DNA of 64,000 bases from Candidatus Gygaella obscura. GTDB lineage: Bacteria > Omnitrophota > Gorgyraeia > Gygaellales > Gygaellaceae. The stretch covers positions 55,481 through 119,480 of the forward strand of contig JAVCCR010000032.1 in NCBI GenBank assembly GCA_030765485.1, read 5' to 3'. A program made the position numbers and the translations under genes. Under the pieces are notes generated by a model, which did not search any database, was not told the origin of the DNA, and saw only the letters and a program-made list of their open reading frames with translations. How positions within the stretch are numbered: the first letter of the stretch is position 1; the number at the start of each line of letters is the position of its first letter. Shown piece by piece: positions 1 to 14,034 of the stretch.

Positions 1-206
1 GAATAAGGCGGGTTCTTTTAGAGAAAGCTGCAGCAGTGCCCAAAGAGGTGTGTCAATTGTGTTACGAGGCATTACTTTTGGCTCCGGTTTTAACAAGGAA
101 AGGGAATTTCAATCTTATTTCTGATGTTGAAGTCGGAGTTGAATTGTTAGAGGCTGCTTTTAAATCCGGTCTTATAAATGTAAGAATAAATAATGAAATT
201 GCTTGA
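1..206 (+). CDS. 3' end of methenyl-THF cyclohydrolase / formiminotransferase-cyclodeaminase-family protein (FchA-like), partial
   Basis: Frame-3 ORF enters from upstream and stops at TGA 204-206, overlapping the folD start. Its C-terminal ...GNFNLISDVEVGVELLEAAFKSGLINVRINNEIA resembles the cyclodeaminase/FchA C-terminus (GNxNxISD motif). It sits immediately upstream of folD-metVF, as in acetogen clusters. Confidence 0.45.
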   Translation, partial: IRRVLLEKAAAVPKEVCQLCYEALLLAPVLTRKGNFNLISDVEVGVELLEAAFKSGLINVRINNEIA

Positions 207-1029
207 AGGTAGAAAAATAGTTGATGGGATTAAATGCAGTTTAAAACAGGAGATTAAAGGTTTAAACCGAAAACCTGTTTTGGCTTGTGTTCAGCTGGGA
301 GACAATTCTTCGGTTTCAAGTTATATAAAATCACAGCAGAAATGCGCTAAGGATTTAGGAATTGAATATTGTTTGAAGTCCTTAGCGGCTCAAACCAGCC
401 AGGAGGATTTGATTGATACGATTACTGAACTTAATAACGACAGTAATATTAACGGTATAATTATCCAGCTTCCTTTGCCCGAACATATTGATGTAAGGAC
501 TGTATATATGGCGGTTTCTCCTGGTAAAGACGCAGAATCTATGCATCCGGAAAACCTAGGAAAGCTTTTCTTTTCTAGTACTAAAGTTTCTCCTTGCACG
601 GCTAGTGCAGTTGTAGAATTATTAAAATCAATCGATATCAAACTTTATGGTAAAGAGGTTGTTATCGTCGGGCACAGTCCCATATTAGGTAAGCCTTTAT
701 CTATTATGCTTTTGAATGAGTATGCCACAATCACAGTTTGTCATATTGCTACATTTGAAGCCGAGAAGTTGATATCTCATATAAAGCAGGCAGATATATT
801 AATTGTAGCTGTGGGTAAAGCGAATTTCATAAAAGCGGATTGGGTAAAAGAAGGTGCGGTAGTTATTGATGTGGGTATTAATAAGCTTGGCGATAAGATA
901 ATCGGAGATGTTGATTTTGATAATGTTTCTAAGAAAGCAAGCTTTATTACGCCTGTTCCCGGAGGGGTAGGGCCTTTAACCACGGCAATATTAATGCGCA
1001 ATCTAGTTACACTAGCAGGCAAGAAATGA
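193..1029 (+). CDS. folD: bifunctional methylene-THF dehydrogenase / methenyl-THF cyclohydrolase
   Basis: 278 aa. FolD-like throughout, with the Rossmann motif VVIVGHSPILGKP and C-terminal PVPGGVGPLTTAILMRNLV. Confidence 0.9.
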   Translation: MKLLEGRKIVDGIKCSLKQEIKGLNRKPVLACVQLGDNSSVSSYIKSQQKCAKDLGIEYCLKSLAAQTSQEDLIDTITELNNDSNINGIIIQLPLPEHIDVRTVYMAVSPGKDAESMHPENLGKLFFSSTKVSPCTASAVVELLKSIDIKLYGKEVVIVGHSPILGKPLSIMLLNEYATITVCHIATFEAEKLISHIKQADILIVAVGKANFIKADWVKEGAVVIDVGINKLGDKIIGDVDFDNVSKKASFITPVPGGVGPLTTAILMRNLVTLAGKK

Positions 1030-1685
1030 TAGTTACAAAGCAAAAGAGCTTACAAGATATATTAGCGGCATTAAAGAATAAAACCAATATTTTCATTATT
1101 GGTTGTGGGGAATGTGCAACGGCTTGCAAGACAGGCGGAGAAGAGGAAGTTAAAGCCTTAGCCAGCGAGTTATCTAAACATAAGAAGAATATTATTGGTT
1201 CTGTTATTCCTAAAGCTCCCTGTGTTGTTAGTCAGGTAAAAAGGGATTTATCTAAATTCCGTGTCGAGCTGGAAAAAACAGATTGTGTTTTAGTTATGGC
1301 CTGCGGTCTGGGTGTGCAGGCAGTCATAAAAAGTAAACGTTTTAACGGTAAAGTAGTTAGTTGCTGCGATACTTTATTTGCCGGATCAATGACTTCAGTA
1401 GGAGAATTTTTTGAATCCTGTTCTTCTTGTGGAGAGTGTGTTTTAAATATTACTGGTGGTCTTTGTCCTGTTACCAGGTGTCCGAAGTCATTATTGAACG
1501 GTCCCTGCGGCGGGGCAAAAAACGGGAAATGCGAAGTAGATAGAAACAACGATTGTGTTTGGATTTTGATCTACGAACGACTTAAAGAACTGGGTGAGTT
1601 GGATAATATTAAAAATTTTATCGAAGCAAAAAACCAGCGTAAGAATTTACGCCCTGGAAGTAGGTCTTTAAAAAAAGATAATTAA
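1026..1685 (+). CDS. metV: MTHFR C-terminal-domain-like zinc-finger protein (MetV-type partner of MetF)
   Basis: 219 aa and Cys-rich (GCGECATAC, CSSCGEC, CPVTRCP, NGPCGG). Its start overlaps the folD stop (ATGA) and it sits immediately upstream of metF, as in acetogen metVF operons. Confidence 0.75.
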   Translation: MIVTKQKSLQDILAALKNKTNIFIIGCGECATACKTGGEEEVKALASELSKHKKNIIGSVIPKAPCVVSQVKRDLSKFRVELEKTDCVLVMACGLGVQAVIKSKRFNGKVVSCCDTLFAGSMTSVGEFFESCSSCGECVLNITGGLCPVTRCPKSLLNGPCGGAKNGKCEVDRNNDCVWILIYERLKELGELDNIKNFIEAKNQRKNLRPGSRSLKKDN

Positions 1686-1687
1686 AT

Positions 1688-2557
1688 ATGAGTAAATTAG
1701 AAACAGCTTTTAAGAATAAAAAATTTGCGGTTACCAGCGAGATTGGACCGCCCAAGGGGATTTTGTTTGAACAGATTTTAATGGATAACATTTCTTTAAG
1801 GGGGCGTGTGGATGCAATTAATGTTACTGATCTTCAGAGTTCGGTTATGCGTTTAGGCTCTTTGGCATTTTCTAAAATTCTTTTAGACAACGCAATAGAA
1901 CCGGTTTTTCAGCTTACCTGTAGAGATAGAAATAGACTTGCTCTACAGTCAGATCTTTTAAGCGCTGCAGTCTTGGGTATTGAAAATGTATTATTGTTAA
2001 CAGGCGATCATCCTATTCTAGGTGATCATCCTCAGGCAAAGGCTGTTTATGATTTAGACAGTGTTCAGCTTTTAGATTGTGCAAGAAAACTTACCAACGG
2101 AGTTGATCTTTGTGGTAATAAGCTTAAAGGTTCTCCTAAGTTGTTTTTAGGGGCTGTTGTTAATCCGGGGGTGGAAACTCTTGATCTAGAGTTGTTGAAG
2201 ATGGAAAAGAAGATTAAAGCAGGTGCACAGTTTTTCCAGACTCAGGCAGTTTATGATATGGATTCTTTCGATAGGTTTATGAAAAAAGCCAAGACCTTTA
2301 ATGTCCCGATAATGGCGGGGATAGTGCTTTTAAAATCTGTTAATATGGCTAAATATCTAAATGATAATGTTGCTGGTATAAATGTCCCCGAAGCACTAAT
2401 TAAACGTATGGAGAAGTCAACGGATAAGGTCAAGACTTCAATAGATATAGCTACAGAGCTTATAAATAATCTAAAAAGTAATTGCCAGGGTGTTCATATC
2501 ATGCCCATTGGTTGGGATAAGTATGTAGTGTCGCTTTTGGATCAAGCCGGTTTATAA
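1688..2557 (+). CDS. metF: 5,10-methylene-THF reductase
   Basis: 289 aa MTHFR-family TIM-barrel protein with acetogen-type MetF length and context, following metV. Confidence 0.85.
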   Translation: MSKLETAFKNKKFAVTSEIGPPKGILFEQILMDNISLRGRVDAINVTDLQSSVMRLGSLAFSKILLDNAIEPVFQLTCRDRNRLALQSDLLSAAVLGIENVLLLTGDHPILGDHPQAKAVYDLDSVQLLDCARKLTNGVDLCGNKLKGSPKLFLGAVVNPGVETLDLELLKMEKKIKAGAQFFQTQAVYDMDSFDRFMKKAKTFNVPIMAGIVLLKSVNMAKYLNDNVAGINVPEALIKRMEKSTDKVKTSIDIATELINNLKSNCQGVHIMPIGWDKYVVSLLDQAGL

Positions 2558-2559
2558 TT

Positions 2560-3429
2560 ATGAAAATTTTAATTATTGGTAGTTCTGCTGCGGGTATTGA
2601 AGCTGCAGCGATGATCAGTTCTTCAGATAGGACGCATGAAGTTACTATAGTCAGCGAAGAGGCTGTTTTGCCTTATTATAGATTTAAACTTGCCGAGTTT
2701 ATTTTTATTAAAGAAGCGGGAAATGGATTCTATTTTAAAGATAAAGAATTTTTCGAAAAGAACAATCTAAAACTTTTGTTAAATAAGAAAGCCATAGGCC
2801 TGGACACAAGAAAAAGAAGGGTAAGGCTAGACGATAATACTTATATTGATTTTGACAGGCTTTTGGTTGCTACGGGAGCTAATTGTGTATTGCCGCAGAT
2901 AAAAGGAACAAATAAAAAGAATGTTTATGGACTTAGGAGTTATTCTGATGCCGAAGAAATAAAAAAGAATCTACCGATTGCCAGTACTGTATTTTTAACA
3001 GGTAACGAAATGTACCTGCGGGATATGGCTTTAAAGTTGAGCCTGCAGAAAAAAGAAGTATTTTTAGTTACTACAAATAATAATCTGGTAGCAGATATTG
3101 AAGAAAACGAGAATTTGAGGTTTATGCTTGAGGATGAAATATTGGAGATAATCGGAGAGTCACAGATACAGGCGGTTAAGCTTAAAAGCAATAAGGTTAT
3201 GGCATGTTCATTATTAGTTTATAATGGTAATTTTAAATCTAATATAAATTTTTTGAAAGGTTCGCCAGTAGAATTATCCGATGGAGTAATTGTAGATGAG
3301 AATATGCGCACCAATTTGGATTTTATTTTTGCTGCCGGCGATGTAGTTGTAATTGACGAGACGAGAAAACGCACCTGGGATAATGCAATCGAGCAGGGCA
3401 GAAAGGCCGGTTTGTCAATATTATTATAG
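2560..3429 (+). CDS. FAD-dependent pyridine-nucleotide-disulfide-oxidoreductase-like flavoprotein with degenerate NAD(P) site and no redox CxxxxC
   Basis: 289 aa. N-terminal IIGSSAAGIEAA is a dinucleotide (FAD) motif and the FAAGDVV FAD motif sits near the C-terminus. The central second Rossmann region reads VFLTGNEMYL, so it lacks GxGxxG. Confidence 0.5.
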   Translation: MKILIIGSSAAGIEAAAMISSSDRTHEVTIVSEEAVLPYYRFKLAEFIFIKEAGNGFYFKDKEFFEKNNLKLLLNKKAIGLDTRKRRVRLDDNTYIDFDRLLVATGANCVLPQIKGTNKKNVYGLRSYSDAEEIKKNLPIASTVFLTGNEMYLRDMALKLSLQKKEVFLVTTNNNLVADIEENENLRFMLEDEILEIIGESQIQAVKLKSNKVMACSLLVYNGNFKSNINFLKGSPVELSDGVIVDENMRTNLDFIFAAGDVVVIDETRKRTWDNAIEQGRKAGLSILL

Positions 3430-3488
3430 CTTTCTTCTTTTTCTACCGCGTAAAATCAGCTTAACAGACAATTCCTTTATTACCTATA

Positions 3489-5552
3489 ATGACAGATTTA
3501 AAATCAAGTTTACAAAAATTATCATTACTTTTAAAAGAAGACGTAGGTATATTGTTTAATAGCGATATATCAGAAAAATACGATGAAAATTTTTCATTTA
3601 AGGATATGGAAAATGCCTTTCCTTTGATCTGTGCTTTTTTTGGTAAGCGTATTTCTAGTTTTAGACAGCTGCGGAGTGCGTTAAATAAAATATCTCTTTT
3701 GCAAGATAAGGTAACAAACAGCGATAAAAAAATAAAAGAATCCGAGTACATCAGAAGACTTGGTTTGGTTATTTTATTTTATGAAGAGATAAAGATTTAT
3801 TTCGATGCTTTATCAAAAAGAAGGAATTTGGAAAGCATTTTGTTTAGCGATACACATATCAGAAAACTCGGTATAGCTTTATTGGATAAGAGCATAAGTG
3901 GATTTATTGTCTTTGTTGGAAGTGTAAATAAAAGTTCTAGCAGGGATGTTTTCTTAACGGATGCAGCCAAAAGGAAGTTAATAGTTTTTGATGACGCGTA
4001 TAAAACAGTTCAGTGCCTTATTAGGTTAAGTTTTATGTTTGGTTGTCAGAATAAAAAAGATTGGAAGTCTGTGTGTGATTACTGCAGGTCTAGTCTGCCT
4101 GCTGTAACTGTTTTATTAGATAATTTTAAAGAAATTGATTTAGCACAGGCCTGTGGAGCCTTAAATCTATCTGTTCCTATTATTACCAATAAAAGGTCAT
4201 TAAAGGTTAGGTATAGTAAGATTAAAAACGGTTACGATGCATTTATTAATATTAAAGAATCTGCTGTAATTATAGATAAGGTTGTAGAGGCAAGGAATAT
4301 TAAATTTGTTCCGGATTTGAGCCGTTTTCCAGTTGGTTTCGGTACAAAGTTTGAAGGGCAGATTATAAAAGATAAAGATTCTTTTATTGATTTTTCTCTT
4401 GGGTCTGCATGTGAGTTATTAGTAAATAGAAACCCTTCGCAGATCCGAGATGGCCAGATAGAAATTATTGGTAGCGATTTGGATAGTTTAAAAGCTGATG
4501 GATACAATAAAAGGCTTTTTATTTTAGTAGAGATGGTTACTAAAAGTGCCTCTAATGAATTTAATGCGGTTTTAGAACGTCAAATCCATAGATTTATTAA
4601 TTATATCGATGGTGTAACACATAGTGGACAAAGTGATTTTTTGAATATTTCAGTTAGTAGGAGTTCGTTTAGGAAGGGTTTAAGATTAAATGATATTGCT
4701 TTTTTTATTTATGCGATGATGCATAGGGAATATTCTAAAATTATAAATAAGATTCAAATAAAAATTATTACTGATAGAAAGCGTTTTGAAAAAGAATTAA
4801 GAAAATCCCGGGATATACACAGGACGCGTTTGGTAAAAGTTATCAATGAAACAGATGAATCCGTTAAAGAGTTTTATTCCTGTTCTATATGCCGCAGTTT
4901 TGCCTTAAATCATATATGTATTATTAGCCCTGAACATCCTGGTCTTTGCGGTTCTTATTCATTTCTTGATGCCAAGATTGCTTTTGAAATCGAGCCTTCA
5001 GGAGCAAATTATCCAATAAAAAAAGGAAAAGTTATTGATCGCAGGCTTGGACAGTGGCAAGGAGTGAATAGATACATTAAAAAAGTTACCAAAAATGCAG
5101 TTAAAAAAGTTAATCTTTATTCATTGATAGAATATCCGCATACCTGTTCTTTATGCTTTGAGTGTATTGTTGTAATCTTGCCGGAATTAAACGGTGTTAT
5201 GGTTGTGAGTAGAGATTATACTGGTAAAAATCCTCTTGGACTTGATTTTTCAAAATTGGCTCATCTATTGGGTTTTGGTGTTCAGTCTCCAGGAATGCTA
5301 GGTTCTAGCAGGGTTTTTCTATTAAGCAAAAAGTTTATGCCTCAAGAGGGGGGGGTAAAAAGAATTATTTGGATGCCCAGCAGTTTAAAGTATTTTTTGA
5401 CAAAGTATAATAAAGCAAGTCAAAAAAAGAGTAATTTAAAGAAAATATTCAGTAAGATTGCCGATGAGCATGATTGTACTTGCTTGGAGGATTTAGCAGA
5501 GTTTTTAAAGAAAAGAAAACACTCCTGTTTGAATATGAGCAGGATTATTTAA
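3489..5552 (+). CDS. acsB: acetyl-CoA synthase (CODH/ACS beta subunit, AcsB/CdhC family) homolog
   Basis: 687 aa. The C-terminal domain carries C465-x2-C468-x8-C477-x9-C487 (CSICRSFALNHICIISPEHPGLCG), the exact spacing of the A-cluster [4Fe-4S] ligands of ACS. About 66 residues downstream it has YPHTCSLCFECIV, where canonical ACS has TSCGCFE. The flanking similarity (PEHPGLCG, LYSLIEYP, GGVKRIIWMP) is ACS-like. Confidence 0.65.
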   Translation: MTDLKSSLQKLSLLLKEDVGILFNSDISEKYDENFSFKDMENAFPLICAFFGKRISSFRQLRSALNKISLLQDKVTNSDKKIKESEYIRRLGLVILFYEEIKIYFDALSKRRNLESILFSDTHIRKLGIALLDKSISGFIVFVGSVNKSSSRDVFLTDAAKRKLIVFDDAYKTVQCLIRLSFMFGCQNKKDWKSVCDYCRSSLPAVTVLLDNFKEIDLAQACGALNLSVPIITNKRSLKVRYSKIKNGYDAFINIKESAVIIDKVVEARNIKFVPDLSRFPVGFGTKFEGQIIKDKDSFIDFSLGSACELLVNRNPSQIRDGQIEIIGSDLDSLKADGYNKRLFILVEMVTKSASNEFNAVLERQIHRFINYIDGVTHSGQSDFLNISVSRSSFRKGLRLNDIAFFIYAMMHREYSKIINKIQIKIITDRKRFEKELRKSRDIHRTRLVKVINETDESVKEFYSCSICRSFALNHICIISPEHPGLCGSYSFLDAKIAFEIEPSGANYPIKKGKVIDRRLGQWQGVNRYIKKVTKNAVKKVNLYSLIEYPHTCSLCFECIVVILPELNGVMVVSRDYTGKNPLGLDFSKLAHLLGFGVQSPGMLGSSRVFLLSKKFMPQEGGVKRIIWMPSSLKYFLTKYNKASQKKSNLKKIFSKIADEHDCTCLEDLAEFLKKRKHSCLNMSRII

Positions 5553-5566
5553 AAAGCTTTTTTTGC

Positions 5567-5596
5567 TTGACTTGTATATATTATATGAGGTATATT
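5567..5596 (+). promoter_or_regulatory. putative sigma70-type promoter (TTGACT-18-TATATT) upstream of the TPR gene
   Basis: TTGACT at 5567-5572 and TATATT at 5591-5596. It is preceded by an AT-rich palindrome, AAAAAGCTTTTT. Confidence 0.3.
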
Positions 5597-5607
5597 ATAA
5601 CTAAATT

Positions 5608-6543
5608 ATGCGTAAGTATTTGAAACTTCTTTTTTTAGGTATTTTTTTGCTACTGGTTATTTGCGATGCCAGAAGTGTTTGTTTTGCTGATCATAAAGAT
5701 GATGCTTTAGATTTACGCAATAAAGGTCTTTTGGCCCAACGATTAGGAAATATCGATAAAGCTCTTAATTTTTATCTTCAGGCGCGCAAAAAATGGTCTT
5801 CCTGGCCGGTTATATATAATGATATTGGTGTTATTTATGAATTTCAATTAAGGATAAACGAAGCAGAGGCTGTCTATCTAAAAGCAATACAGTTTGATCC
5901 TTATTATGCTTCCAGTTATACTAATTTAGCCTTTCTTTATGAAAAGAAACAGGATTTTAAAAATGCTATTTTTTACTGGAAGAAAAGAATTCAGCTGGGC
6001 GATGTTGATGATCCTTGGGCAAAAACTGCCCGCGAAAGAATTGCTATTTTAAGAAATAAGATTGGGTTGCAAGAGGGTGATAGTACAGACGAATTGATTA
6101 AACAGGTAAATAAAGATATTTCTCGTTATGATAATCATATTTTTCCTTTTTCGGAGATTATTGATCTTGAATCTATAGATGATCTTTCTATGGAAGAAAA
6201 AATTACTAAAATTAGAAATGCCAAGGCAAGAGCCAAGTGGCTTCGCGATAACGATTATTCTGTTATGGAGAAAGATCAACTTGAGATGATTGATGAGTTA
6301 GAGTATTCCGTAGAGTTGGAGCGTGTGGAACAGGAAAAAGATCAACTTCTAGATCTTGATAGTGAAGGTTCGCTAGAGTTATTGAGAGAATTGTCAAAAG
6401 ATGATGATCCAGAAGTGAGAAAAAGTGCTGACGATGCCCTTTGGTATAATAGCCAAGGTTTTGGCATGTTGGCTAAAGAAGAAGCAGAGCGTATTAATCA
6501 GATGCGCAGTTTACCTTCAAGTAAATCACAGATAGATTATTAG
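5608..6543 (+). CDS. secreted TPR-repeat protein with acidic coiled-coil C-terminus
   Basis: N-terminal signal peptide MRKYLKLLFLGIFLLLVICDA. TPR-like repeats (AxxxYxxAIxxDPxYAxxYxNLAxxY). The C-terminal ~120 aa are D/E-rich. Confidence 0.6.
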   Translation: MRKYLKLLFLGIFLLLVICDARSVCFADHKDDALDLRNKGLLAQRLGNIDKALNFYLQARKKWSSWPVIYNDIGVIYEFQLRINEAEAVYLKAIQFDPYYASSYTNLAFLYEKKQDFKNAIFYWKKRIQLGDVDDPWAKTARERIAILRNKIGLQEGDSTDELIKQVNKDISRYDNHIFPFSEIIDLESIDDLSMEEKITKIRNAKARAKWLRDNDYSVMEKDQLEMIDELEYSVELERVEQEKDQLLDLDSEGSLELLRELSKDDDPEVRKSADDALWYNSQGFGMLAKEEAERINQMRSLPSSKSQIDY

Positions 6544-6596
6544 CACTAACTCCTAAATTTTAAAGATTAATGGCTTATTCCTTCCATTAGTTTTAT

Positions 6597-9119
6597 ATGA
6601 AAAACCCTAAAGAGTTAATATTAATAGACGCTAATTCATTTTGTTACCGTGCTTTTTATGCCATAAAGCAGCTTCAGACGAGCTATGGGCAGTCGACCAA
6701 TGCTGTTTACGGTTTTGTTGTTATGATAAATAAGATTGTTGAGATGTTTAAGCCTGAATACCTTGGGGTTTGTTTTGATGTTTCCAGAAAGACCTTTCGT
6801 TCTGAAAAATTCCGTGATTATAAGCTTAACAGGCCGGCTATGCCGGATGAGCTTGTTTCTCAGATAGATTTCATCAAGGAGCTGGTAAGAAGTTATAATT
6901 TCGCCCTGTTACAACGCCAGGGGTATGAAGCAGATGATATTATTGCTACAGCCTGCAGGACTTTTAAAAATAATGGATTTAAAAGTATCGTTATTAGTTC
7001 GGATAAAGATATGTTGCAGTTAGTGGATGATAAAACGTTTATTTATAATCCTCAGAAAGATAAAGGGCTTATGTTTGATAAAAGGGTTGTTTTAGAGCGG
7101 GTTGGCTTACATCCTGAGCAGATAGTTGATTTTATTAGTTTGACCGGTGATAATGCCGATAATATTCCGGGGGTTAAAGGTATAGGAGAAAAAACTGCTG
7201 TTTTATTGCTTAAGGAGTTTAAAACAGTGGATGGCGTTTTGAAGAATCTAGAAGAAATAAAAAAACCGAAATTAAGGGATTCACTTAGACAGGCAAAGAA
7301 GCAACTGACTTTAAACCGCGAGCTTATAACTTTGGATTCTAATGTAGACGTAGATGTTTCTTTGGATAATCTAAAGGTTAAAGAACCCGATTACAAAAGA
7401 CTTTCTCAGCTATATAGAAAACTTGAATTTAAGAGTTTATTAAAACAACTTCCTGATTCTTGTGATAGAGAAGTTTTAGAGTTAAAAAATGATCAGGAAT
7501 CATTTATCGGGGATTCGGAAGGAAAAAAGGCTATCTCTTTTTTTATTGAAGAAGATTGTTTTTATTTATCTTTCGGTACAGGATGTGTTTGGAAGTTCGA
7601 TTCGTTGTTTTTACAGTTAAAAGAAATATTAGAGGATAATAGTATTTTAAAAATTACGCATGATCTTAAAAAAGCTTATAGTGCTTTATCCAGATGCTCA
7701 GTAGAGTTAAAAGGAGAGCTTTTTGATATACTTTTGGCCGGATATCTTTTGGATAGCGGGAAGAGCGAATATTCGGTGAAAGACGTGCTTTTTGATTTTC
7801 TTGAGAAGCAGGTTAATCATAATTTTGAAGCTGTGAATTATTTTATTTCTTTAAAGGAGATTTTGTTAAAAAAACTTAAGGATAATCAGCTTGATAAATT
7901 GTTTTTTGAAGTTGAATTACCTTTTTCTAAAGTGTTATCCAGTATGGAAAGAGAAGGTTTTTCTATTGATGTTAGGTTTTTAAAAGATCTATCTGAAAAA
8001 TTCGAAATTAAACTAAAAAATATTACAGAAAAGATTTTTAAGATTAGCGAAGAAGAGTTTAATATCAATTCTCCTAAACAGCTTCGGGTTATTTTATTTG
8101 ATAAATTTAAACTTCCTGTTGTGAAGAAGACTAAAACCGGACCATCCACCGACGAGGAAGTTTTAAAAGTATTATCTTCAAAGCACGAGCTTCCTGTGTT
8201 GTTATTGGAGTATCGTCAGATTAACAAATTGAAGTCTACTTATGTTGATGTATTGCCGGAATTAGTGGATAAGAAGAATAAAATTCACTGTAATTTTAAG
8301 CAGTTTGGAACAGGTACAGGAAGATTGTCTTGTGAGAATCCGAACCTGCAGAATATTCCTGTAAGGACCGCCGCGGGAAAAGAAATCAGACGTGCTTTTA
8401 TTTGTTCCCGTAAAGATAATGTGCTTATTTCAAGCGATTATTCTCAGATAGAGCTGAGGATATTAGCGCATCTATCCAAAGATAAGAATCTGGTTAAGGC
8501 ATTTAAAAAGGGTGAGGATATTCATAGATTTACTGCCGGACTAGTTTTTGATGTTGAGGAAAAAGATGTGGATAATCAAATGCGCAATGTCGCTAAAAGA
8601 GTAAATTTCGGTATTATTTACGGAATGAGTGCTTTTGGTCTGGCTAAGGATCTATCGATTACTAATCAAGAAGCGCAAAATTTTATCGATACGTATTTCT
8701 TAAGGTATCCTAAAGTAAAAGAATATATCCAAGGTCAGATCAAATTTGCCGAAAATAACGGATATGTGGAAACTGTTCTCGGCAGGAAAAGATTTCTGCC
8801 ATTTATTAAAAGCAAAGTTAACGCTCAAAAGCAGTTTGCTTACCGCCAGGCAATAAATACGCCTGTTCAGGGTTCGGCAGCGGAGCTTATGAAGTTGGCG
8901 ATGATTAATATCCATGAATTGTTTATGAAAAATAGACTTTCTGCGAAAATAATACTTCAGGTTCATGATGAGTTGATTTTTGAAGTGAATAAGAATAGTT
9001 TAGAGGAATCAATATCGGTTATACGTAGCAATATGGAACAGATTTATAAGATAGATGTGCCGATTAAAACTAATTTTAAACAGGGTTCTAATTGGTTTGA
9101 TATGGTTGCTGTGAATTAA
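6597..9119 (+). CDS. polA: DNA polymerase I
   Basis: 840 aa with an N-terminal 5'-3' exonuclease domain and a C-terminal family A polymerase domain (motif A DYSQIELR, motif B RNVAKRVNFGIIYG, motif C QVHDEL). Confidence 0.9.
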   Translation: MKNPKELILIDANSFCYRAFYAIKQLQTSYGQSTNAVYGFVVMINKIVEMFKPEYLGVCFDVSRKTFRSEKFRDYKLNRPAMPDELVSQIDFIKELVRSYNFALLQRQGYEADDIIATACRTFKNNGFKSIVISSDKDMLQLVDDKTFIYNPQKDKGLMFDKRVVLERVGLHPEQIVDFISLTGDNADNIPGVKGIGEKTAVLLLKEFKTVDGVLKNLEEIKKPKLRDSLRQAKKQLTLNRELITLDSNVDVDVSLDNLKVKEPDYKRLSQLYRKLEFKSLLKQLPDSCDREVLELKNDQESFIGDSEGKKAISFFIEEDCFYLSFGTGCVWKFDSLFLQLKEILEDNSILKITHDLKKAYSALSRCSVELKGELFDILLAGYLLDSGKSEYSVKDVLFDFLEKQVNHNFEAVNYFISLKEILLKKLKDNQLDKLFFEVELPFSKVLSSMEREGFSIDVRFLKDLSEKFEIKLKNITEKIFKISEEEFNINSPKQLRVILFDKFKLPVVKKTKTGPSTDEEVLKVLSSKHELPVLLLEYRQINKLKSTYVDVLPELVDKKNKIHCNFKQFGTGTGRLSCENPNLQNIPVRTAAGKEIRRAFICSRKDNVLISSDYSQIELRILAHLSKDKNLVKAFKKGEDIHRFTAGLVFDVEEKDVDNQMRNVAKRVNFGIIYGMSAFGLAKDLSITNQEAQNFIDTYFLRYPKVKEYIQGQIKFAENNGYVETVLGRKRFLPFIKSKVNAQKQFAYRQAINTPVQGSAAELMKLAMINIHELFMKNRLSAKIILQVHDELIFEVNKNSLEESISVIRSNMEQIYKIDVPIKTNFKQGSNWFDMVAVN

Positions 9120-9137
9120 TTCTAAATAGGAAAATAT

Positions 9138-10550
9138 ATGAATATACTTTTTTGTTCTAGTGAAGTCGTACCTTTTGCTAAAACAGGTGGTTTGGCTGAT
9201 GTTGCCGGAGCATTGCCTTTGGCATTAAAAATGCTTAACCACGATATACGCATTGTTATGCCAAAATACGGCTTTATTGATGAAAAGAAATTTTCTTTAA
9301 AAAAATTGAATAATAATTTATATACGGCTAAAATAGCGGATAAAGTTACAGTTTATTTCATCGACCATAAGAGCTTCTTTAAGCGGGACGGTTTATACGG
9401 GGATAAGAATGGAGATTATCCGGACAATCTGGATAGATTTTCTTATTTTTCTCAACAGGTAATCGCTCTAATAAAGGAAGTTGATTTTATTCCCGATGTT
9501 GTGCATTGTAATGATTGGCAGACTGCGTTGATACCGGTTTATTTAAAGACCGCATGCAAAAACGATTCTGTTTATGCAAAGATAAAGACAGTATTCACAG
9601 TCCATAATCTTGCTTATCAGGGGCTTTTTGATAAAGAAAATTTTTCTAAGTTGGGTTTAGATTGGAAATTATTCAATATGGATTATCTGGAATATTACGA
9701 TAAAATTAATTTTTTAAAGGGTGGTTTGGTATTTTGCGATATTATTACTACTGTAAGCGAAGCCTATGCAAAGGAAATTCAGACTAAGGAATTCGGCTGT
9801 GGTCTGGAAGGATTATTGACGAAACGCAGTAAAGATCTTTTTGGCATTATCAATGGTCTTGATTATAATTTGTGGGATCCAGAAAAAGATAAGATGATTT
9901 ATAAGAAATATTCTGCTAAAGCCTATAAAGCCAAACATGAAAATAAAAGGCAATTGCAGGCAGAATGCGGTTTAGCAGTAAAAGAAGATGCGCTTTTATG
10001 CGGTATGGTTTCTAGGCTGGCTGAGCAAAAAGGAGTTGATGTATTGAGTGCTTCTTTGCAAGAATTAATAAAGCTTAATCTACAGGTTGTTATTTTAGGT
10101 ACGGGTGATTTGAAATACCATGATTTGTTGGCAAGGCTAGCAAAAAAATATAAAGATAAAATAAGCGTATTTTTAAAATTTGATAACGTGATAGCTCATA
10201 AGATATATGCCGGCAGTGATTTATTTTTAATGCCTTCGCGCTATGAGCCGTGTGGTTTGGGTCAGATGATAAGTTTAAAATACGGTACAGTTCCCTTGGT
10301 GTATAAAACCGGTGGTCTTGCTGATACGGTAATTGATTGTCAAAAAGACAAAACTAAAGGCAATGGATTTGTTTTTGAAAAATTTGATAAAAAAGAGTTT
10401 ATTTCAACTGTAAAAAGAGCACTTGCGGTTTTTGAAGAAAATAAATTCAATTCTCTTATTGGCAAAGCTTTTAAATATAATTTTTCGTGGAAGTCTTCGG
10501 CAAGTAAATACATAGATTTATTCAATCGTTTGGTAAAAGGAAGGGTTTAA
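9138..10550 (+). CDS. glgA: glycogen synthase (ADP-glucose type, GT5)
   Basis: 470 aa with N-terminal SEVVPFAKTGGLADVAGALP, the KTGGL motif of GlgA. Confidence 0.9.
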   Translation: MNILFCSSEVVPFAKTGGLADVAGALPLALKMLNHDIRIVMPKYGFIDEKKFSLKKLNNNLYTAKIADKVTVYFIDHKSFFKRDGLYGDKNGDYPDNLDRFSYFSQQVIALIKEVDFIPDVVHCNDWQTALIPVYLKTACKNDSVYAKIKTVFTVHNLAYQGLFDKENFSKLGLDWKLFNMDYLEYYDKINFLKGGLVFCDIITTVSEAYAKEIQTKEFGCGLEGLLTKRSKDLFGIINGLDYNLWDPEKDKMIYKKYSAKAYKAKHENKRQLQAECGLAVKEDALLCGMVSRLAEQKGVDVLSASLQELIKLNLQVVILGTGDLKYHDLLARLAKKYKDKISVFLKFDNVIAHKIYAGSDLFLMPSRYEPCGLGQMISLKYGTVPLVYKTGGLADTVIDCQKDKTKGNGFVFEKFDKKEFISTVKRALAVFEENKFNSLIGKAFKYNFSWKSSASKYIDLFNRLVKGRV

Positions 10551-10556
10551 GCGGTT

Positions 10557-11147
10557 ATGGTTTTTGGAGTTACAGGAGGTTTTGCTTGCGGTAAAAGTAC
10601 GGTTAGCAAGATGTTTCGTGATTTGGGTGCAAAATTAATTGATGCGGATAAAATTGCTCACGTTCTTTTAGATTCGCCCAAGTTAAAAAGAAGTTTAGTT
10701 TCTTATTTTGGGAAAGATATATTAACCAGGCAAAAGAAGATTAGTAGGAAAAAACTTGCGAATATTGTTTTTTCAAAACCAAACAGCCTGAGATTTCTTA
10801 ATAGTGTTGTTCATCCGGAGGTAATCAAAAAATTAAAATCCCGGATTGCTTCTTTCAGAAACAGAATATTGGTTTTGGATATTCCTTTGTTGTACGAGTC
10901 ACGCTTAGAAAATTTGGTTGATTATATTGTGGTGGTTAAGTGTTTAAAATTAATTTGTTTAAAGAGGGCACAAGAGAATAATTTTTCTAAATCGCAGGCT
11001 TTGAAAATAATCCAGGCACAATTGCCTTTAAGATATAAAGTTGAGCAAGCTGATTATGTAATTGATAATAGCTATTCGTTAAAAAAGACCAATATGGAGG
11101 TTAAAAAGACATGGCGGGATATGTTGCGAAAACAGAACAAGAAGTAA
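10557..11147 (+). CDS. coaE: dephospho-CoA kinase
   Basis: 196 aa with a P-loop, [12 protein letters not shown]. Confidence 0.85.
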
Positions 11148-11149
11148 AA

Positions 11150-12397
11150 ATGGATATCAGTAATCTTAAGGATATGAAAGTAACCGATCTTAATAAAATC
11201 GCTAGAGATCTTCGTGTCAATGGGGTTAGCGGATTGAAGAAACAGGATTTGATTTTTAAAATACTTCAGGCCCAGGCGGAAAAAGCCGGACTTATGTTCG
11301 GAGAAGGCACTTTAGAGATTTTACCAGAAGGCTTTGGGTTTTTAAGGTCGGCGAATTACAATTATTTGCCTTCACCTGATGATATTTATATTTCACCATC
11401 CCAGATAAGGAAATTTGATTTAAGGACTGGCGATACAGTCAGTGGTCAGATTAGGCCTCCTAAGGAAGGCGAGAAGTATTTCGCACTTTTAAAGGTAGAG
11501 GCGGTGAATTTTGAGAATCCTGAGAATTCAAAAGAAAAGGTTCTTTTTGATAATCTTACGCCCCTTTACCCGCAGGAGAAATTTATTCTTGAGACCAAGC
11601 CAGAAGAGGTGTCCATGCGGGTAATGAGCCTGTTGGCTCCTTTAGGCAAGGGCCAGCGTGCATTAATCGTGGCTCCGCCTTATAGCGGTAAAACCGTGCT
11701 TTTACAGAAAATCGGTAATGCCATAACAAACAACCACCCTGATGCGACATTAATGGTGCTTTTGATTGATGAGCGTCCAGAAGAGGTTACGGATATGCAG
11801 CGTAATGTTAAAGGAGAAGTAATTAGCTCTACTTTCGATGAGGCTCCGGAGCGTCATGTTCAGGTAGCGGAAATCGTGTTAGAGAAGGCTAAAAGGCTTA
11901 TTGAACATAAACGGGATGTTATAATTTTACTTGATAGTATTACCCGTTTAGCACGTGCCTATAACTCAGTAATGCCTCATAGCGGTAAGATTCTTTCAGG
12001 TGGTATTGATTCAAATGCCTTGCAGAAGCCAAAGAGGTTTTTTGGCGCAGCCCGTGCATTAGAAGAAGGAGGAAGTCTTACTATAATTGCTACCGCTTTA
12101 GTTGATACTGGAAGTCGTATGGATGATGTAATTTTTGAGGAGTTTAAAGGAACTGGCAATATGGAGCTTCAGCTTGATAGAAATCTATTCCAGCGCAGAA
12201 TATATCCGGCTATTGATATTAAGCGTTCTAACACGAGACACGAGGAATTGCTTCTTAAGGAAGATGAACTTACAAAAATATGGATTATGCGCAAAGTATT
12301 GAATGATTTGAATTCTGTAGAGGCAATGGAGCTTTTGATTCAAAAATTAAAAAAGACTAAGAATAATAAGGATTTTTTAAATAGTATGAACCAGTAG
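11150..12397 (+). CDS. rho: transcription termination factor Rho
   Basis: N-terminal Rho_N domain, cold-shock-like RNA-binding domain, and Walker A PPYSGKT. I chose the start at ATG 11150 (MDISNLKDM...) immediately after the coaE stop; the ORF track's upstream Met at 11111 overlaps coaE. Confidence 0.9.
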
Positions 12398-12413
12398 ATA
12401 AGGGAAAAAGAAT

Positions 12414-13769
12414 ATGAATAAAATAGCGTTTGTTTTGTTAAGTTTTATTTTATGTTCTGTGTTTGCTTTTGCTCAAGAGGTTGAGGAAATCCGTATTGTT
12501 ACTTATTATCCTTCTCCTTACGGAAGTTATACAGAGTTACGCAGTAACAGGATGGCCATTGGAGATAATTATAGCGATGCTGGCACTTACCAATGGGGGA
12601 CTAATATTAACACTAATGCTGATTTAATTGTTCAGCAAAATGTTGGAATTGGAACATCTAACCCCGATGCCCCGCTATCTTTTGCAAATTCATTAGGTGA
12701 TAAAATCCAACTTTATGATAATGGTAGTTTTACTACGTATGGTTTTGGTGTACAAAGTAATAACCTGCAATTATTGACTACCGATCATACTACGGATATT
12801 ACTTTTAATTATGGTTTTAGTGCTTCTGCTACGGAATTGATGAGGATAAAGGGTAATGGCAATGTCGGTATCGGAATCACGAATCCAACTGAAAAGTTAT
12901 ACGTAAACGGGAATGCCATAATTGGCAGTAGTAATGTCGATGCTACTCTTAATGGGGAGGGAGTGTTTCAGTCAAGCAGTAATTTAGCTGGGGCTGGGTT
13001 TATAGCTACTCCTTGGGTGTATGCACGAGCAATAGAAGGAGATCAAAGAGGATCTGGCTCTACTCTTATTACAATTGGTGGTAAAAATGGCTTTACCAGT
13101 GATGATGAAATTGGTTTAGTAACAAACGGAAAACTAAAAATGCTTATGGATTCAAATGGGTTAGTGACTTTTTTTGGTTTGCATTCTACTTCTCCAGGGA
13201 ATCTCGTATTTAATCAGGATAGTCAGGGTGATTTTGAGACTGATATTAATTTTGATTCTAGCGGGCGTATTGCTGGAGAGAGTGATATTTTTCGTGTTGC
13301 AAGCAAAGGAACTCACGATTTACGTTTAGCAACGAATTCAGTAGATGATAAAGTTACTATTAGAAATTCAGGTATGGTTGGTATCTTGGATACGACCCCC
13401 AGTTATACTTTAGATGTTAACGGTACTTTTAGGGCGTTTGGTATTACTGATTCATCAGATATAAGATGGAAGAAAAATATAACTAATCTCGAGACTCCTT
13501 TAGATAAACTTGCTAAGCTTAGGGGAGTAAGGTATCAGTGGAATCAAGAAGCCTATCCCGATAAGAATTTTGCTCCAGGTATGCAGATTGGTATTATTGC
13601 CCAAGAGCTCGAAGAGCAATATCCTGAGTTGGTGGACATAGATAGTGATGGCTATAAATCAATTCAATATGGAAAATTAACTGCTGTATTATTAGAGGGG
13701 ATCAAAGAGTTAAAACAAGAAAATGATATTTTAAAACAAAGAATCGCATCTTTGGAAGAAAATTTTTAG
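12414..13769 (+). CDS. secreted fibre-like protein with C-terminal intramolecular chaperone (peptidase S74 / endosialidase-chaperone-like) domain
   Basis: Signal peptide MNKIAFVLLSFILCSVFAFA. Repeated GNVGIGTxNPxxxLxV-type motifs typical of tail-fibre stalks. The C-terminal ~110 aa (DIRWKKNITNLETPLDKLAKLRGVRYQWN...GIIAQELEEQYPELV...YGKLTAVLLEGIKELKQE) match the self-cleaving chaperone domain of phage tail fibres and tailspikes. Confidence 0.6.
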   Translation: MNKIAFVLLSFILCSVFAFAQEVEEIRIVTYYPSPYGSYTELRSNRMAIGDNYSDAGTYQWGTNINTNADLIVQQNVGIGTSNPDAPLSFANSLGDKIQLYDNGSFTTYGFGVQSNNLQLLTTDHTTDITFNYGFSASATELMRIKGNGNVGIGITNPTEKLYVNGNAIIGSSNVDATLNGEGVFQSSSNLAGAGFIATPWVYARAIEGDQRGSGSTLITIGGKNGFTSDDEIGLVTNGKLKMLMDSNGLVTFFGLHSTSPGNLVFNQDSQGDFETDINFDSSGRIAGESDIFRVASKGTHDLRLATNSVDDKVTIRNSGMVGILDTTPSYTLDVNGTFRAFGITDSSDIRWKKNITNLETPLDKLAKLRGVRYQWNQEAYPDKNFAPGMQIGIIAQELEEQYPELVDIDSDGYKSIQYGKLTAVLLEGIKELKQENDILKQRIASLEENF

Positions 13770-13830
13770 AAGAAAAGTTTGAAGCGATTATTTTTTACAA
13801 ATATAACTAGATGAAAGGAAGGAGAAAAAA

Positions 13831-14034
13831 ATGAAAAAGGAAATCCACCCAAAGTATAAAGATTGTACTATAGTCTGTGCATGCGGAGAGGTGATTCATA
13901 CGCGTTCTACAAAAGACAATATCCGTGTGGATATATGTTCTAAGTGTCATCCGTTTTTTACCGGAAAGCAGAAATTTATTGATTCTGCCGGACGCGTTGA
14001 AAAATTCAATAAAAAATATAAGAAAAACAAGTAA
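13831..14034 (+). CDS. rpmE: 50S ribosomal protein L31
   Basis: 67 aa with MKKEIHPKY and the zinc-ribbon cysteines CxC...CxxCHPFFTG. Confidence 0.9.

What the first reader, a model, noticed from the sequence alone, without database searches (positions are those of the whole stretch)
4881..5165. Acetyl-CoA synthase homolog with C-S-L-C-F-E-C in place of the canonical Ni-binding C-G-C
The 687-aa protein has the ACS A-cluster [4Fe-4S] ligand spacing exactly (C465-x2-C468-x8-C477-x9-C487) and ACS-like flanking conservation. About 66 residues later, where canonical AcsB/CdhC has Cys-Gly-Cys (thiolates plus backbone amides forming the square-planar N2S2 site for the distal Ni), this protein reads T-C553-S-L-C556-F-E-C559. 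The extra residue and added third Cys would change the distal metal site. This could be a divergent ACS-like paralog with altered metal chemistry or function rather than a bona fide acetyl-CoA synthase. My recollection of the canonical CGCFE context is from memory and needs checking.
Basis: partly seen in the sequence, partly recalled or inferred. Interest (0 to 1): 0.7.

Follow-up and report, generated by a model that had tools for sequence, protein, structure and literature searches.

The report
Remodelled orphan acetyl-CoA synthase homolog
An uncultured Antarctic-lake bacterium keeps the gene for the nickel enzyme acetyl-CoA synthase after losing that enzyme's partner genes from the locus, and the kept copy has a rewired nickel site and no recognisable coenzyme A handle, so it probably no longer does the classic job.

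Summary
ORF 3489..5552 (+, 687 aa) is a three-domain AcsB homolog with the exact cubane ligand spacing. Canonical T-S-C-G-C-F-E-[C/A] reads T-C553-S-L-C556-F-E-C559.

The alignment is ungapped, so there is no extra residue. The first nickel-bridging Cys has moved one position upstream and the Gly is lost. The "third" Cys is present in 31 of 44 canonical enzymes, so it is not new.

The variant is conserved as T-C-S-A-C-F-E-C in the only other clade member (55% identity). The gene is identical in four independent assemblies.

Synteny shows it is the positional ortholog, not a paralog, of canonical AcsB in related Omnitrophota. Those loci carry CODH, CooF and (in one) CooC between metF and acsB. 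This lineage has lost them.

The protein evolves faster than all 15 compared neighbour genes but stays under purifying selection (dN/dS about 0.23). It keeps the cubane, the proximal-metal pocket and the Arg/His catalytic pair. It has lost the coenzyme A adenine-stacking Trp and two invariant Arg.

Most likely it is a repurposed AcsB derivative rather than a bona fide acetyl-CoA synthase. It is a new variant of a known kind, of moderate interest.

The parts
3489..5552 (+). ACS* gene: 687-aa three-domain AcsB ortholog (A1 about residues 1-279, A2 about 280-440, A3 about 441-687)
   Evidence: ORF. Pfam PF03598 and PF19436. PDB ACS hits at E 3e-106. AF2 model with pLDDT 84.3. Foldseek best overall superposition is C. 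autoethanogenum ACS 6ytt_A, TM 0.72.
4881..4949 (+). [4Fe-4S] cubane ligand block C465-x2-C468-x8-C477-x9-C487, with F471 (the equivalent of M. thermoacetica Phe512)
   Evidence: All four Cys are invariant in 44 of 44 canonical ACS and in both clade members. F471 is conserved.
5145..5165 (+). Variant distal-site motif C553-S-L-C556-F-E-C559 in place of S-C-G-C-F-E-C
   Evidence: Ungapped alignment to solved ACS. Column counts. Conserved as C-S-A-C-F-E-C in P0002 with partly different codons.
4632..4652 (+). Degenerated coenzyme A nucleotide site: S382...N386...S388, where canonical enzymes have R...W...R (C. autoethanogenum R401, W405, R407)
   Evidence: Canonical counts are R 44/44, W 41/44 and R 44/44. 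P0001 has S, N, S and P0002 has K, S, S. Trp405 stacks the adenine of acetyl-CoA (bioRxiv 10.1101/2024.08.05.606187).
4578..4589 (+). Retained catalytic pair R364 and H367 (C. autoethanogenum Arg383 and His386)
   Evidence: Conserved in both clade members and in 42 of 44 canonical enzymes.
3861..3887 (+). A1 gating helix R125-K-L-G128-I129-A-L-L132-D133 (C. hydrogenoformans R145, G148, I149, V152)
   Evidence: R, G, I and D are retained and V has become L. Roles are from PMC12289521.
4014..4085 (+). Clade-specific conserved Cys gained in A1: C176, C186 (F-G-G has become F184-G-C186) and C199
   Evidence: Canonical residues at these columns are F, G and N. The Cys are conserved in P0001 and P0002. 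Their function is unknown.
2560..3429 (+). Co-oriented truncated flavoprotein (Pyr_redox_2, 289 aa), ortholog of the 421-426 aa FNOR-like gene that sits upstream of canonical acsB in relatives
   Evidence: Pfam and synteny. The second GxGxxG, the Cys-x-Cys and the Rubredoxin_C domain are lost. dN/dS is 0.13.
193..2557 (+). Upstream folate C1 genes folD (193..1029), metV/DUF5981 (1026..1685) and metF (1688..2557). They are closely spaced or overlapping and co-oriented with the two genes above.
   Evidence: Pfam. The same order is found in the second clade genome.

Best explanation
ACS* is the positional ortholog of bacterial AcsB in the Gygaella lineage of Omnitrophota. The source organism is Ca. 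Gygaella obscura from Ace Lake. The gene survived the loss of its CODH, CooF and CooC neighbours, and reportedly of CFeSP and the methyltransferase. It was then remodelled.

**Shown**
- It keeps the three-domain fold.
- It keeps the four cubane cysteines, including the bridging Cys468.
- It keeps the hydrophobic pocket around the proximal metal (F184, F471, L132).
- It keeps the A1 gating helix and the Arg364/His367 pair.
- The thiolate that bridges the two nickels (M. thermoacetica Cys595) is now Ser.
- A Cys has appeared one residue upstream, and the Gly is now Leu or Ala.
- The coenzyme A adenine and diphosphate residues are gone.
- The protein evolves about twice as fast as its neighbours but remains under purifying selection.

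**Inferred**
- The canonical square-planar N2S2 distal nickel chelate of Cys-Gly-Cys cannot form.
- The cubane most likely now bridges through Cys468 to a single thiolate-ligated metal held by Cys553 and Cys556, possibly also by Cys559 or the newly gained Cys186.
- The protein no longer makes or cleaves acetyl-CoA in the classic CODH- and CFeSP-dependent way.
- It probably serves a new redox or small-ligand role together with the co-oriented truncated flavoprotein and the MetVF folate genes.
For: **Homology and fold.**

**Motif.** The alignment is ungapped. Canonical enzymes have C-G-C in 44 of 44 cases, against S-[L/A]-C with Cys at position -1 in both clade members.

**Orthology.** The closest canonical relatives are P0003 and P0004. 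They lie in the same neighbourhood: FTCD_C, folD, metF, CODH, cooF, (cooC), FNOR, acsB, TPR. In L007 the contig continues with polA, glgA, coaE, rho, rpmE, prfA, prmC and aroA. The window and the second clade genome lack CODH, cooF and cooC.

**Rate of evolution.**
- ACS* is 55% identical between the two clade genomes, against 66-96% for 17 neighbours.
- Its dN of 0.345 is the highest of 16 genes, with dN/dS about 0.23.
- The canonical pair L007/L008 has ACS at 78%, within the range of its neighbours.
- Mean identity to 18 canonical ACS is 29-30%, against 50% for the syntenic canonical orthologs.

**Residue map.**
- R125, G128, I129, F184, R364, H367, G380 and F471 are kept.
- R382, W386 and R388 are lost.
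- Only 20 of 35 canonically conserved A2 columns are kept, against 34-35 of 35 in typical canonical enzymes.

**Genome content.** A published table lists no AcsA, AcsB, AcsC, AcsD, AcsE or CooF for the Gygaella MAG (PMC8542988 supplement). No such genes occur in the 64-kb window.

**Reach of position -1.** Published modelling places a His substituted at M. thermoacetica Ser594 (S594H mutant) about 2.7 A from the distal nickel (PMC8910529). A Cys at that position could therefore plausibly ligate a metal.
Against: - No metal content, activity or expression data exist.
- Absence of CFeSP, methyltransferase and CODH across the whole genome rests on a published annotation of an 85-94% complete MAG. 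I did not test it independently, and nothing is known for the second genome beyond 10 kb on either side.
- Retention of the proximal pocket, gating helix and Arg/His pair could also mean that classic chemistry persists.
- One singleton ACS with another CxxC (C-W-Y-C) sits in a complete acsDBCE-cooC operon. A CxxC alone therefore does not prove loss of function.
- dS is saturated (about 1.5), so the dN/dS values are rough.
Confidence: 0.6

Rival explanations
1. It is still a working acetyl-CoA synthase or decarbonylase. It would have an unusual but competent Ni site built on C-x-x-C and use exogenous CO, as proposed for the 'partial Wood-Ljungdahl pathway without AcsA' in other Omnitrophota. 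The CFeSP and methyltransferase would be encoded elsewhere or missed.
For: - The cubane ligands, bridging Cys, Phe471, Phe184, gating helix and Arg364/His367/Gly380 are all retained.
- Partial pathways lacking AcsA and CooS are described for Gygaellales-related families (PMC10066038).
- The MAG is incomplete.
- A different CxxC variant lies in a complete acs operon.
Against: - The bridging Cys595 equivalent and the Gly are lost in both members.
- The coenzyme A adenine-stacking Trp and two invariant Arg are lost.
- dN is elevated two-fold or more, and 50 of 133 canonically conserved columns are changed.
- cooC is absent from the locus, although a relative has it there.
- No AcsC, AcsD or AcsE is listed for this MAG.
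- The protein scores below all NCBIfam cutoffs.
Confidence: 0.17
2. It is an electron-transfer or accessory subunit only. The cubane is used as a redox relay for the MetVF methylene-tetrahydrofolate reductase together with the truncated flavoprotein, and the former nickel site is merely structural.
For: - The operon-like order metV, metF, flavoprotein, ACS* is tight, with gaps of 2, 2 and 59 bp. It is conserved in both genomes.
- Both downstream genes are degenerate yet under purifying selection.
- The cubane block is the best-conserved part of the protein, at 80% identity for residues 455-500.
Against: - The gene order is inherited from ancestors in which acsB was canonical. Linkage to metF is therefore not specific evidence.
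- Retention of the catalytic Arg/His pair, the proximal pocket and three Cys at the former Ni site argues for more than a relay.
Confidence: 0.15
3. It is a decaying relic with no function, on its way to becoming a pseudogene.
For: - It is the fastest-evolving of the 16 compared genes.
- Its partner genes have been lost.
- NCBI labels it 'hypothetical protein'.
Against: - The 682-687 codon ORFs are intact in two lineages separated by dS of about 1.5, in a 35% GC genome.
- pN is 0.28 against pS of 0.65.
- 13 of 17 Cys are conserved, against 55% identity overall.
- The variant motif is conserved with synonymous differences.
Confidence: 0.06

Closest known systems
Bacterial acetyl-CoA synthase AcsB (alpha subunit of CODH/ACS in Moorella thermoacetica, and the ACS of Carboxydothermus hydrogenoformans and Clostridium autoethanogenum; PF18537 + PF03598 + PF19436)
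   Same: - Three-domain A1-A2-A3 fold.
- C-x2-C-x8-C-x9-C cubane ligands, including the bridging Cys.
- Phe next to the bridging Cys, and the A1 gating helix.
- Arg/His catalytic pair.
- The second Cys of the nickel motif, followed by F-E-C.
- The same chromosomal position as canonical acsB in related Omnitrophota.
   Different: - S-C-G-C has become C-S-[L/A]-C, so the Ni-Ni bridging thiolate and the Gly are lost.
- There is no PF18537 hit, and A1 shares only about 20% identity.
- The coenzyme A adenine-stacking Trp and two invariant Arg are lost.
- 38% of canonically conserved columns are changed.
- CODH, CooF and CooC are absent from the locus.
- It scores below the NCBIfam equivalog cutoffs.
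Incomplete Wood-Ljungdahl pathways that keep AcsB without CODH (Velamenicoccus archaeovorus-type Omnitrophota, PMC10066038; Dehalococcoides mccartyi, from my own knowledge)
   Same: AcsB is retained after loss of AcsA/CooS. Folate methyl-branch genes are present.
   Different: Those cases are described as keeping AcsC, AcsD and AcsE. As far as I know they keep a canonical nickel motif, which I did not check here. In this lineage the motif itself is changed and no CFeSP or methyltransferase is reported.
Other ACS-like homologs with altered distal-site motifs seen here (C-G-D 597-aa family; C-S-C, C-R-C and C-W-Y-C variants)
   Same: The cubane cysteines are conserved while the Cys-Gly-Cys column varies. 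Some are orphans outside acs operons.
   Different: None has the Cys shifted to position -1 with Ser at the canonical first Cys. They are different lineages, at most 37% identical to ACS*.

Membership tests
Acetyl-CoA synthase (AcsB/CdhC) | Sequence and fold homology to the A2 and A3 core (PF03598, PF19436) plus the A1 domain | tested here: met
   PF19436 1.5e-86 and PF03598 5.7e-38. PDB ACS E 3e-106. Foldseek TM 0.72 to 6ytt_A, and A1 TM 0.74-0.76 to 6yua. PF18537 itself is not hit.
Acetyl-CoA synthase (AcsB/CdhC) | Four Cys ligands of the A-cluster [4Fe-4S] cubane, including the Cys bridging to the proximal Ni | tested here: met
   C465, C468, C477 and C487 align with 44 of 44 canonical enzymes.
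Acetyl-CoA synthase (AcsB/CdhC) | Cys-Gly-Cys motif, which supplies both Ni-bridging thiolates and the two backbone amides of the square-planar distal Ni (PMC8910529) | tested here: not met
   Canonical enzymes have C-G-C in 44 of 44 cases. The window has S554-L555-C556 with Cys553 at position -1, and P0002 has S-A-C.
Acetyl-CoA synthase (AcsB/CdhC) | Coenzyme A binding residues in A2 (adenine-stacking Trp405 and flanking Arg, C. autoethanogenum numbering) and the catalytic Arg383/His386 | tested here: not met
   The Trp is N or S, and the two Arg are S/K and S/S. Arg364, His367 and Gly380 are retained. Assigning the two Arg to the diphosphate patch is my inference.
Acetyl-CoA synthase (AcsB/CdhC) | Curated family score (NCBIfam NF040764 equivalog, NF007078, TIGR00316) | tested here: not met
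   559.3 bits against a cutoff of 800. 558.9 against 809. 323.3 against 355.95.
Acetyl-CoA synthase (AcsB/CdhC) | Genomic partnership with CODH (acsA/cooS), CFeSP (acsC, acsD), the methyltransferase (acsE) and the Ni-insertion ATPase (cooC/acsF) | tested here: not met
   None is present in the 64-kb window or within 10 kb either side in the second genome. Syntenic relatives have CODH and cooF, plus cooC in one of them, at this spot. Genome-wide absence comes only from a published table.
Acetyl-CoA synthase (AcsB/CdhC) | Ni,Ni-[4Fe-4S] metal content and acetyl-CoA synthesis or exchange activity | not testable with these tools
   This needs purified protein, metal analysis, EPR and assays.
Nitrile hydratase-type 'claw' metal site (C-[S/T]-L-C-S-C) | A C-x-x-C-S-C motif in which the last C-S-C supplies two amides and two sulfurs | tested here: not met
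   The window has C-S-L-C-F-E-C, so there is no C-x-C unit after the CSLC. The resemblance is limited to the first four residues and was recalled from memory.
Ferredoxin-type [4Fe-4S] binding motif (C-x2-C-x2-C...C-P) | C-x2-C-x2-C followed by a remote Cys-Pro | tested here: inconclusive
   The Cys shift creates C553-x2-C556-x2-C559. No Cys-Pro follows, and a fourth ligand would have to come from elsewhere. No geometric check was possible.

The most novel reading that the evidence does not exclude
After CODH and CFeSP were lost, this lineage converted the Ni,Ni subsite of the A-cluster into a different metallocentre. The one-residue Cys shift turns C-G-C-x-x-C into C-x-x-C-x-x-C. With the bridging Cys468, or the newly gained Cys186 from A1, this could hold a mononuclear tetrathiolate metal or a second Fe-S cluster next to the cubane. 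The result would be an ACS-derived enzyme with a CODH-, corrinoid- and CoA-independent reaction in folate C1 metabolism. It would be a natural experiment on what the distal nickel is for.
Probability: 0.22. Interest if true: 0.75.

Novelty: new variant of a known kind. Interest (0 to 1): 0.5.

Why it matters
The role of the distal nickel in the A-cluster is still debated (PMC8910529 states it is "not clear yet").

A naturally conserved ortholog keeps the cubane, the proximal pocket and the catalytic Arg/His. It has moved one bridging cysteine and dropped the glycine. That gives bioinorganic chemists a ready-made variant to express, and a three-residue swap to test in model enzymes.

It also matters for genome annotation. 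Pfam-level hits to ACS in streamlined Omnitrophota, and in the other variant families seen here, should not be read as evidence of a Wood-Ljungdahl pathway.

The family-wide table shows that the Cys-Gly-Cys column is far more variable among ACS homologs than the cubane ligands. I found no paper in the searched literature that notes this.

Tried and rejected
- **Genome-collection scan with the single protein.** It found nothing. The source genome is probably absent or masked.
- **Genome-collection scan with the two-sequence alignment.** It recovered only the already known M55B134 contig.
- **Metagenome motif scan** (T-C-[S]-x-C-F-E-C-I-V).
  - It returned no new member.
  - Seven hits were canonical ACS with T-C-C-G-C, because the degenerate Ser codon pattern also matches Cys.
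  - Two hits (L012, L014) showed no similarity to ACS* by tblastn and look like chance matches.
- **Per-genome KO table of Seymour et al.** Looking up acs genes in genome 319 failed. Even the metF control phrase was not found, so the file is either cut or the phrase form does not match.
- **Literature searches for described ACS-like variants.** They found nothing relevant.
- **Promoter and terminator scan.**
  - Promoter-like sites are no more frequent than in shuffled sequence (30 found, 24.5 expected).
  - The best match overlaps the start codon.
  - Terminator-like sites are more frequent than in shuffles (11 found, 4.3 expected), and one lies at 5523-5544, overlapping the 3' end of ACS*. 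I did not follow this up.
  - I drew no operon inference from this scan.
- **Pseudogene reading.** Rejected on the intact ORFs and pN well below pS.
- **Nitrile-hydratase-like claw.** Rejected because no C-x-C follows the CSLC.
- **"Paralog".** Rejected on synteny.
- **"Inserted residue".** Rejected on the ungapped alignment.
- **Geometry check.** Model coordinates are not exposed, so I could not measure sulfur-sulfur distances.
Full report
**1. What is in the sequence**

- The finding lies inside ORF 3489..5552 on the + strand, which encodes 687 aa.
- Coordinates 4881..5165 run exactly from the Cys465 codon to the Cys559 codon.
- The protein hits Pfam ACS_CODH_B_C (PF19436, 1.5e-86) and CdhC (PF03598, 5.7e-38).
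- Its best solved relatives are the acetyl-CoA synthases of C. hydrogenoformans, C. autoethanogenum and M. thermoacetica, with E-values from 3e-106 to 1e-102 over residues about 172-686.
- It scores below every curated NCBIfam cutoff, for example 559 against 800 bits for the AcsB equivalog.
- An AlphaFold2 model has pLDDT 84.3 and pTM 0.73.
- The model superposes on the three-domain ACS of C. autoethanogenum with TM 0.72.
- The N-terminal domain alone matches the ACS A1 domain with target-normalised TM 0.74-0.76 at only 19-20% identity.
- An identical protein is deposited as 'hypothetical protein' of Candidatus Gygaella obscura, an Omnitrophota MAG from Ace Lake, Antarctica.
- The whole gene is base-identical in four independent assemblies.

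**2. Checking the observation**

The cubane spacing C465-x2-C468-x8-C477-x9-C487 is exactly as stated. All four Cys are invariant in 44 canonical relatives.

The motif T-C553-S-L-C556-F-E-C559 is also there.

- The independent HMMER alignment to C. hydrogenoformans ACS is ungapped through this block and pairs TSCGCFEA with TCSLCFEC. No residue has been inserted.
  - Cys556 is the canonical second Cys (M. thermoacetica Cys597).
  - Ser554 replaces the canonical first Cys (Cys595).
  - Leu555 replaces Gly596.
  - Cys553 occupies the position that is Ser, Ala or Thr in all canonical enzymes (Ser594).
- The Cys after F-E is present in 31 of 44 canonical enzymes. It is Ala in the well-studied C. 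hydrogenoformans enzyme.

**3. Is the variant conserved, and how rare is it?**

- A word-indexed search of 5.8 billion proteins and an exhaustive HMMER search of 1.84 billion cluster representatives found a single other clade member.
- That member is P0002, 682 aa and 55% identical, from MAG M55B134 (GCA_018400015.1). It reads T-C-S-A-C-F-E-C.
- Several codons in and around the motif differ between the two genes.
- All other hits are at most 37% identical.
- Across about 190 homologs the four cubane Cys are almost universal, but the C-G-C column is surprisingly variable.
  - C-G-C is the majority.
  - C-S-C, C-R-C, C-A-C and C-H-C occur.
  - A 597-aa family has C-G-D.
  - Several sequences have no Cys in that column.
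- Only P0001 and P0002 have the Cys shifted to position -1 with the canonical first Cys lost.
- A metagenome motif scan found seven canonical ACS with T-C-C-G-C, that is Cys at -1 together with the full C-G-C. This is a plausible intermediate on the path S-C-G-C, then C-C-G-C, then C-S-x-C.

**4. Genomic context and orthology**

In the window the gene order is folD (193..1029), metV/DUF5981 (1026..1685), metF (1688..2557), a 289-aa Pyr_redox_2 flavoprotein (2560..3429), ACS* (3489..5552), a TPR protein and polA.

The second clade genome has the same order, preceded by fhs and FTCD_C.

The closest canonical ACS sequences are P0003 and P0004. They are about 33-35% identical, read T-S-C-G-C-F-E-C and have a PF18537 hit. 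They lie in the same neighbourhood in related genomes, and L007 continues downstream with TPR, polA, glgA, coaE, rho, rpmE, prfA, prmC and aroA.

In those relatives, between metF and acsB, there are:
- a 635-644 aa prismane-family CODH;
- a CooF-type ferredoxin;
- a CbiA/CooC-type ATPase (in L008);
- a 421-426 aa Pyr_redox_2 + Rubredoxin_C protein.

ACS* is therefore the positional ortholog of canonical AcsB, not a paralog.

The Gygaella lineage has deleted CODH, cooF and cooC. It has also shortened the flavoprotein, which lost its second GxGxxG, its Cys-x-Cys and its C-terminal domain.

No acsA, acsC, acsD or acsE lies anywhere in the 64-kb window, which otherwise holds housekeeping genes.

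The supplementary table of Williams et al. 2021 lists AcsA, AcsB, AcsC, AcsD, CooF and AcsE only for Ca. Gorgyraea. For the Gygaella MAG it lists FolD and MetF on a contig whose coordinates match this window, but no carbonyl-branch gene. The main text calls the organism a sugar and 2-oxoacid fermenter with only an [FeFe] hydrogenase. I could not verify genome-wide absence myself.

**5. Evolutionary rate**

| Comparison | ACS or ACS* | Neighbour genes |
|---|---|---|
| Two clade genomes, aa identity | 55% | 66-96% (17 genes) |
| Two clade genomes, dN | 0.345 (highest of 16) | other 15 genes, all lower |
| Canonical pair L007/L008, aa identity | 78% | FolD 71%, MetF 85%, CODH 80% |
| Mean identity to 18 diverse canonical ACS | 29-30% | 50% for syntenic canonical orthologs |

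- For ACS*, pN is 0.28 against pS 0.65, so dN/dS is about 0.23 with saturated dS.
- The gene is therefore on a long, accelerated branch.
- An intact ORF of about 685 codons maintained in both lineages across dS of about 1.5, in a 35% GC genome, with pN well below pS, rules out a neutral pseudogene.

**6. What is kept and what is lost**

Of 133 columns that are at least 90% conserved in canonical ACS, 50 are changed in at least one clade member.

| Domain | Canonically conserved columns retained | Typical canonical enzyme |
|---|---|---|
| A1 | 14 of 22 | 20-22 of 22 |
| A2 | 20 of 35 | 34-35 of 35 |
| A3 | 60 of 74 | 69-73 of 74 |

I mapped residues whose roles are described for C. autoethanogenum ACS (bioRxiv 10.1101/2024.08.05.606187) and C. 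hydrogenoformans ACS (PMC12289521).

Retained:
- the gating-helix residues R125, G128, I129 and D133;
- F184 and F471, the hydrophobic residues that flank the proximal Ni;
- R364 and H367, the equivalents of Arg383 and His386, which the authors call 'likely crucial for acetyl transfer';
- G380.

Lost:
- the adenine-stacking Trp405 equivalent (now N or S);
- the two flanking Arg that are invariant in 44 of 44 canonical enzymes (now S/K and S/S);
- the bridging Cys and the Gly of the nickel motif.

Seven Cys absent from canonical enzymes are conserved in both clade members: C176, C186, C199, C308, C553, C663 and C680. C186 converts the conserved F-G-G after F184 into F-G-C. Overall 13 of 17 Cys are conserved, against 55% identity for the whole protein.

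**7. Most likely mechanism**

Established chemistry, from PMC8910529:
- The proximal Ni is held by three thiolates, Cys509, Cys595 and Cys597.
- The distal Ni is held in a square-planar N2S2 site by the thiolates and backbone amides of Cys595-Gly596-Cys597.

With Ser at the Cys595 position the fused chelate of the distal site cannot form as known, and one of the two Ni-Ni bridges is gone. This is inference.

The same paper's modelling of an S594H mutant places the substituted His side chain about 2.7 A from the distal Ni. Cys553, at the equivalent position, can therefore plausibly reach the metal site. This is also inference.

I conclude the following.
- The cubane and a thiolate-ligated metal next to it persist. 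The ligands would be Cys468, Cys553 and Cys556, with Cys559 or Cys186 as possible fourth ligands.
- The canonical Ni,Ni pair probably does not persist.
- The enzyme no longer binds CoA through its nucleotide.
- It has no CODH and apparently no corrinoid methyl donor.
- It is therefore most likely a repurposed AcsB derivative. It may act with the co-oriented truncated flavoprotein and MetVF, but its reaction is unknown.
- My confidence in this reading is about 0.6.

**8. Rival explanations**

- **A still-working non-canonical ACS using external CO, with CFeSP encoded elsewhere (0.17).**
  - For: the retained pocket and Arg/His pair; published partial pathways without AcsA in related families; a singleton C-W-Y-C variant inside a complete acsD-acsB-acsC-acsE-cooC operon.
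  - Against: the lost CoA site, the lost cooC and the published gene table.
- **A pure electron-relay subunit for MetVF (0.15).**
  - For: the tight linkage.
  - Against: that linkage is ancestral.
- **A functionless relic (0.06).** The selection evidence argues against it.

**9. Comparison with known systems, and novelty**

The protein works from the ACS scaffold but fails four membership features tested here:
- the Cys-Gly-Cys motif;
- the CoA nucleotide residues;
- the curated score cutoffs;
- the partner genes at the locus.

I therefore do not file it as an acetyl-CoA synthase in the functional sense.

I found no paper describing this or the other distal-site variants. The most recent ACS phylogeny discusses domain architecture only.

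It is a new variant of a known kind. Only two sequences are known and there are no functional data, so interest is moderate (0.5). The most novel reading that the evidence does not exclude is a new metallocentre built on the C-x2-C-x2-C created by the shift. I give that a probability of about 0.22.

Noticed in passing
window 2560..3429 (+); compare L007 8243..9523: The flavoprotein upstream of ACS* is a truncated ortholog (289 aa against 421-426 aa) of the FNOR-like Pyr_redox_2 + Rubredoxin_C gene of relatives. It has lost the second GxGxxG (VLGGGLVGLK has become FLTGNEMYLR), the Cys-x-Cys and the C-terminal domain. It is still under purifying selection (dN/dS 0.13).
   Followed up: partly
window 4014..4085 and 4410..4412 (+); ACS* residues C176, C186, C199, C308, plus C663 and C680: Six further cysteines absent from canonical ACS are conserved in both clade members. 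C186 turns the conserved F-G-G next to the proximal-Ni-facing Phe into F-G-C. A new metal or disulfide site is possible but could not be checked without model coordinates.
   Followed up: partly
L009, L010, L011, L013, L015, L016, L017 (metagenome contigs): A group of otherwise canonical ACS carries T-C-C-G-C-F-E-C, that is a Cys at position -1 in addition to the full Cys-Gly-Cys. This is a plausible evolutionary intermediate toward the C-S-x-C variant.
   Followed up: partly
L019 3119..5332 (P0028, GCA_964499695.1): A singleton ACS reads T-T-C-W-Y-C-E-C (a CxxC in a different register). It sits in a complete acsD-acsB-acsC-acsE-cooC operon. It could be a real variant or a sequence error.
   Followed up: no
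L018 8001..9974 (P0040) and P0030-P0041, P0076: A family of 597-657 aa ACS-like proteins has C-G-D-F-E-C (second nickel Cys replaced by Asp), intact cubane Cys and no full A1 domain. In L018 it lies outside any Wood-Ljungdahl context, next to a TrmO_N/Ni_insertion-like gene, an MFS transporter and a Na/H exchanger.
   Followed up: partly
all ACS homologs, table: Across about 190 homologs the four cubane cysteines are nearly universal, but the Cys-Gly-Cys column is highly variable (C-S-C, C-R-C, C-A-C, C-H-C, C-G-D, or no Cys). ACS-like proteins with altered distal sites therefore appear widespread, and I found no description of them in the literature searched.
   Followed up: partly
L001 5951..6230 compared with L005 4541..6235: The formate-tetrahydrofolate ligase gene (fhs) lies between RNase HII and FTCD_C in the M55B134 genome. 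It is missing at that spot in the Gygaella obscura contig, which has only a 280-bp gap there.
   Followed up: no
window 12414..13769 (+): A 451-aa protein with a Peptidase_S74 domain (intramolecular chaperone of endosialidase and phage tail-fibre proteins) sits between rho and rpmE. The gene at the same position in M55B134 is 403 aa with no Pfam hit.
   Followed up: no
window 20160..20921 (+): A 253-aa ORF with no Pfam hit is embedded in the tryptophan operon, between the PRA isomerase gene and trpB.
   Followed up: no
window 1..64000: Nearly all genes are on the + strand and GC skew is strongly positive throughout (0.12-0.31), consistent with one replichore arm. GC content is 33-37%.
   Followed up: no
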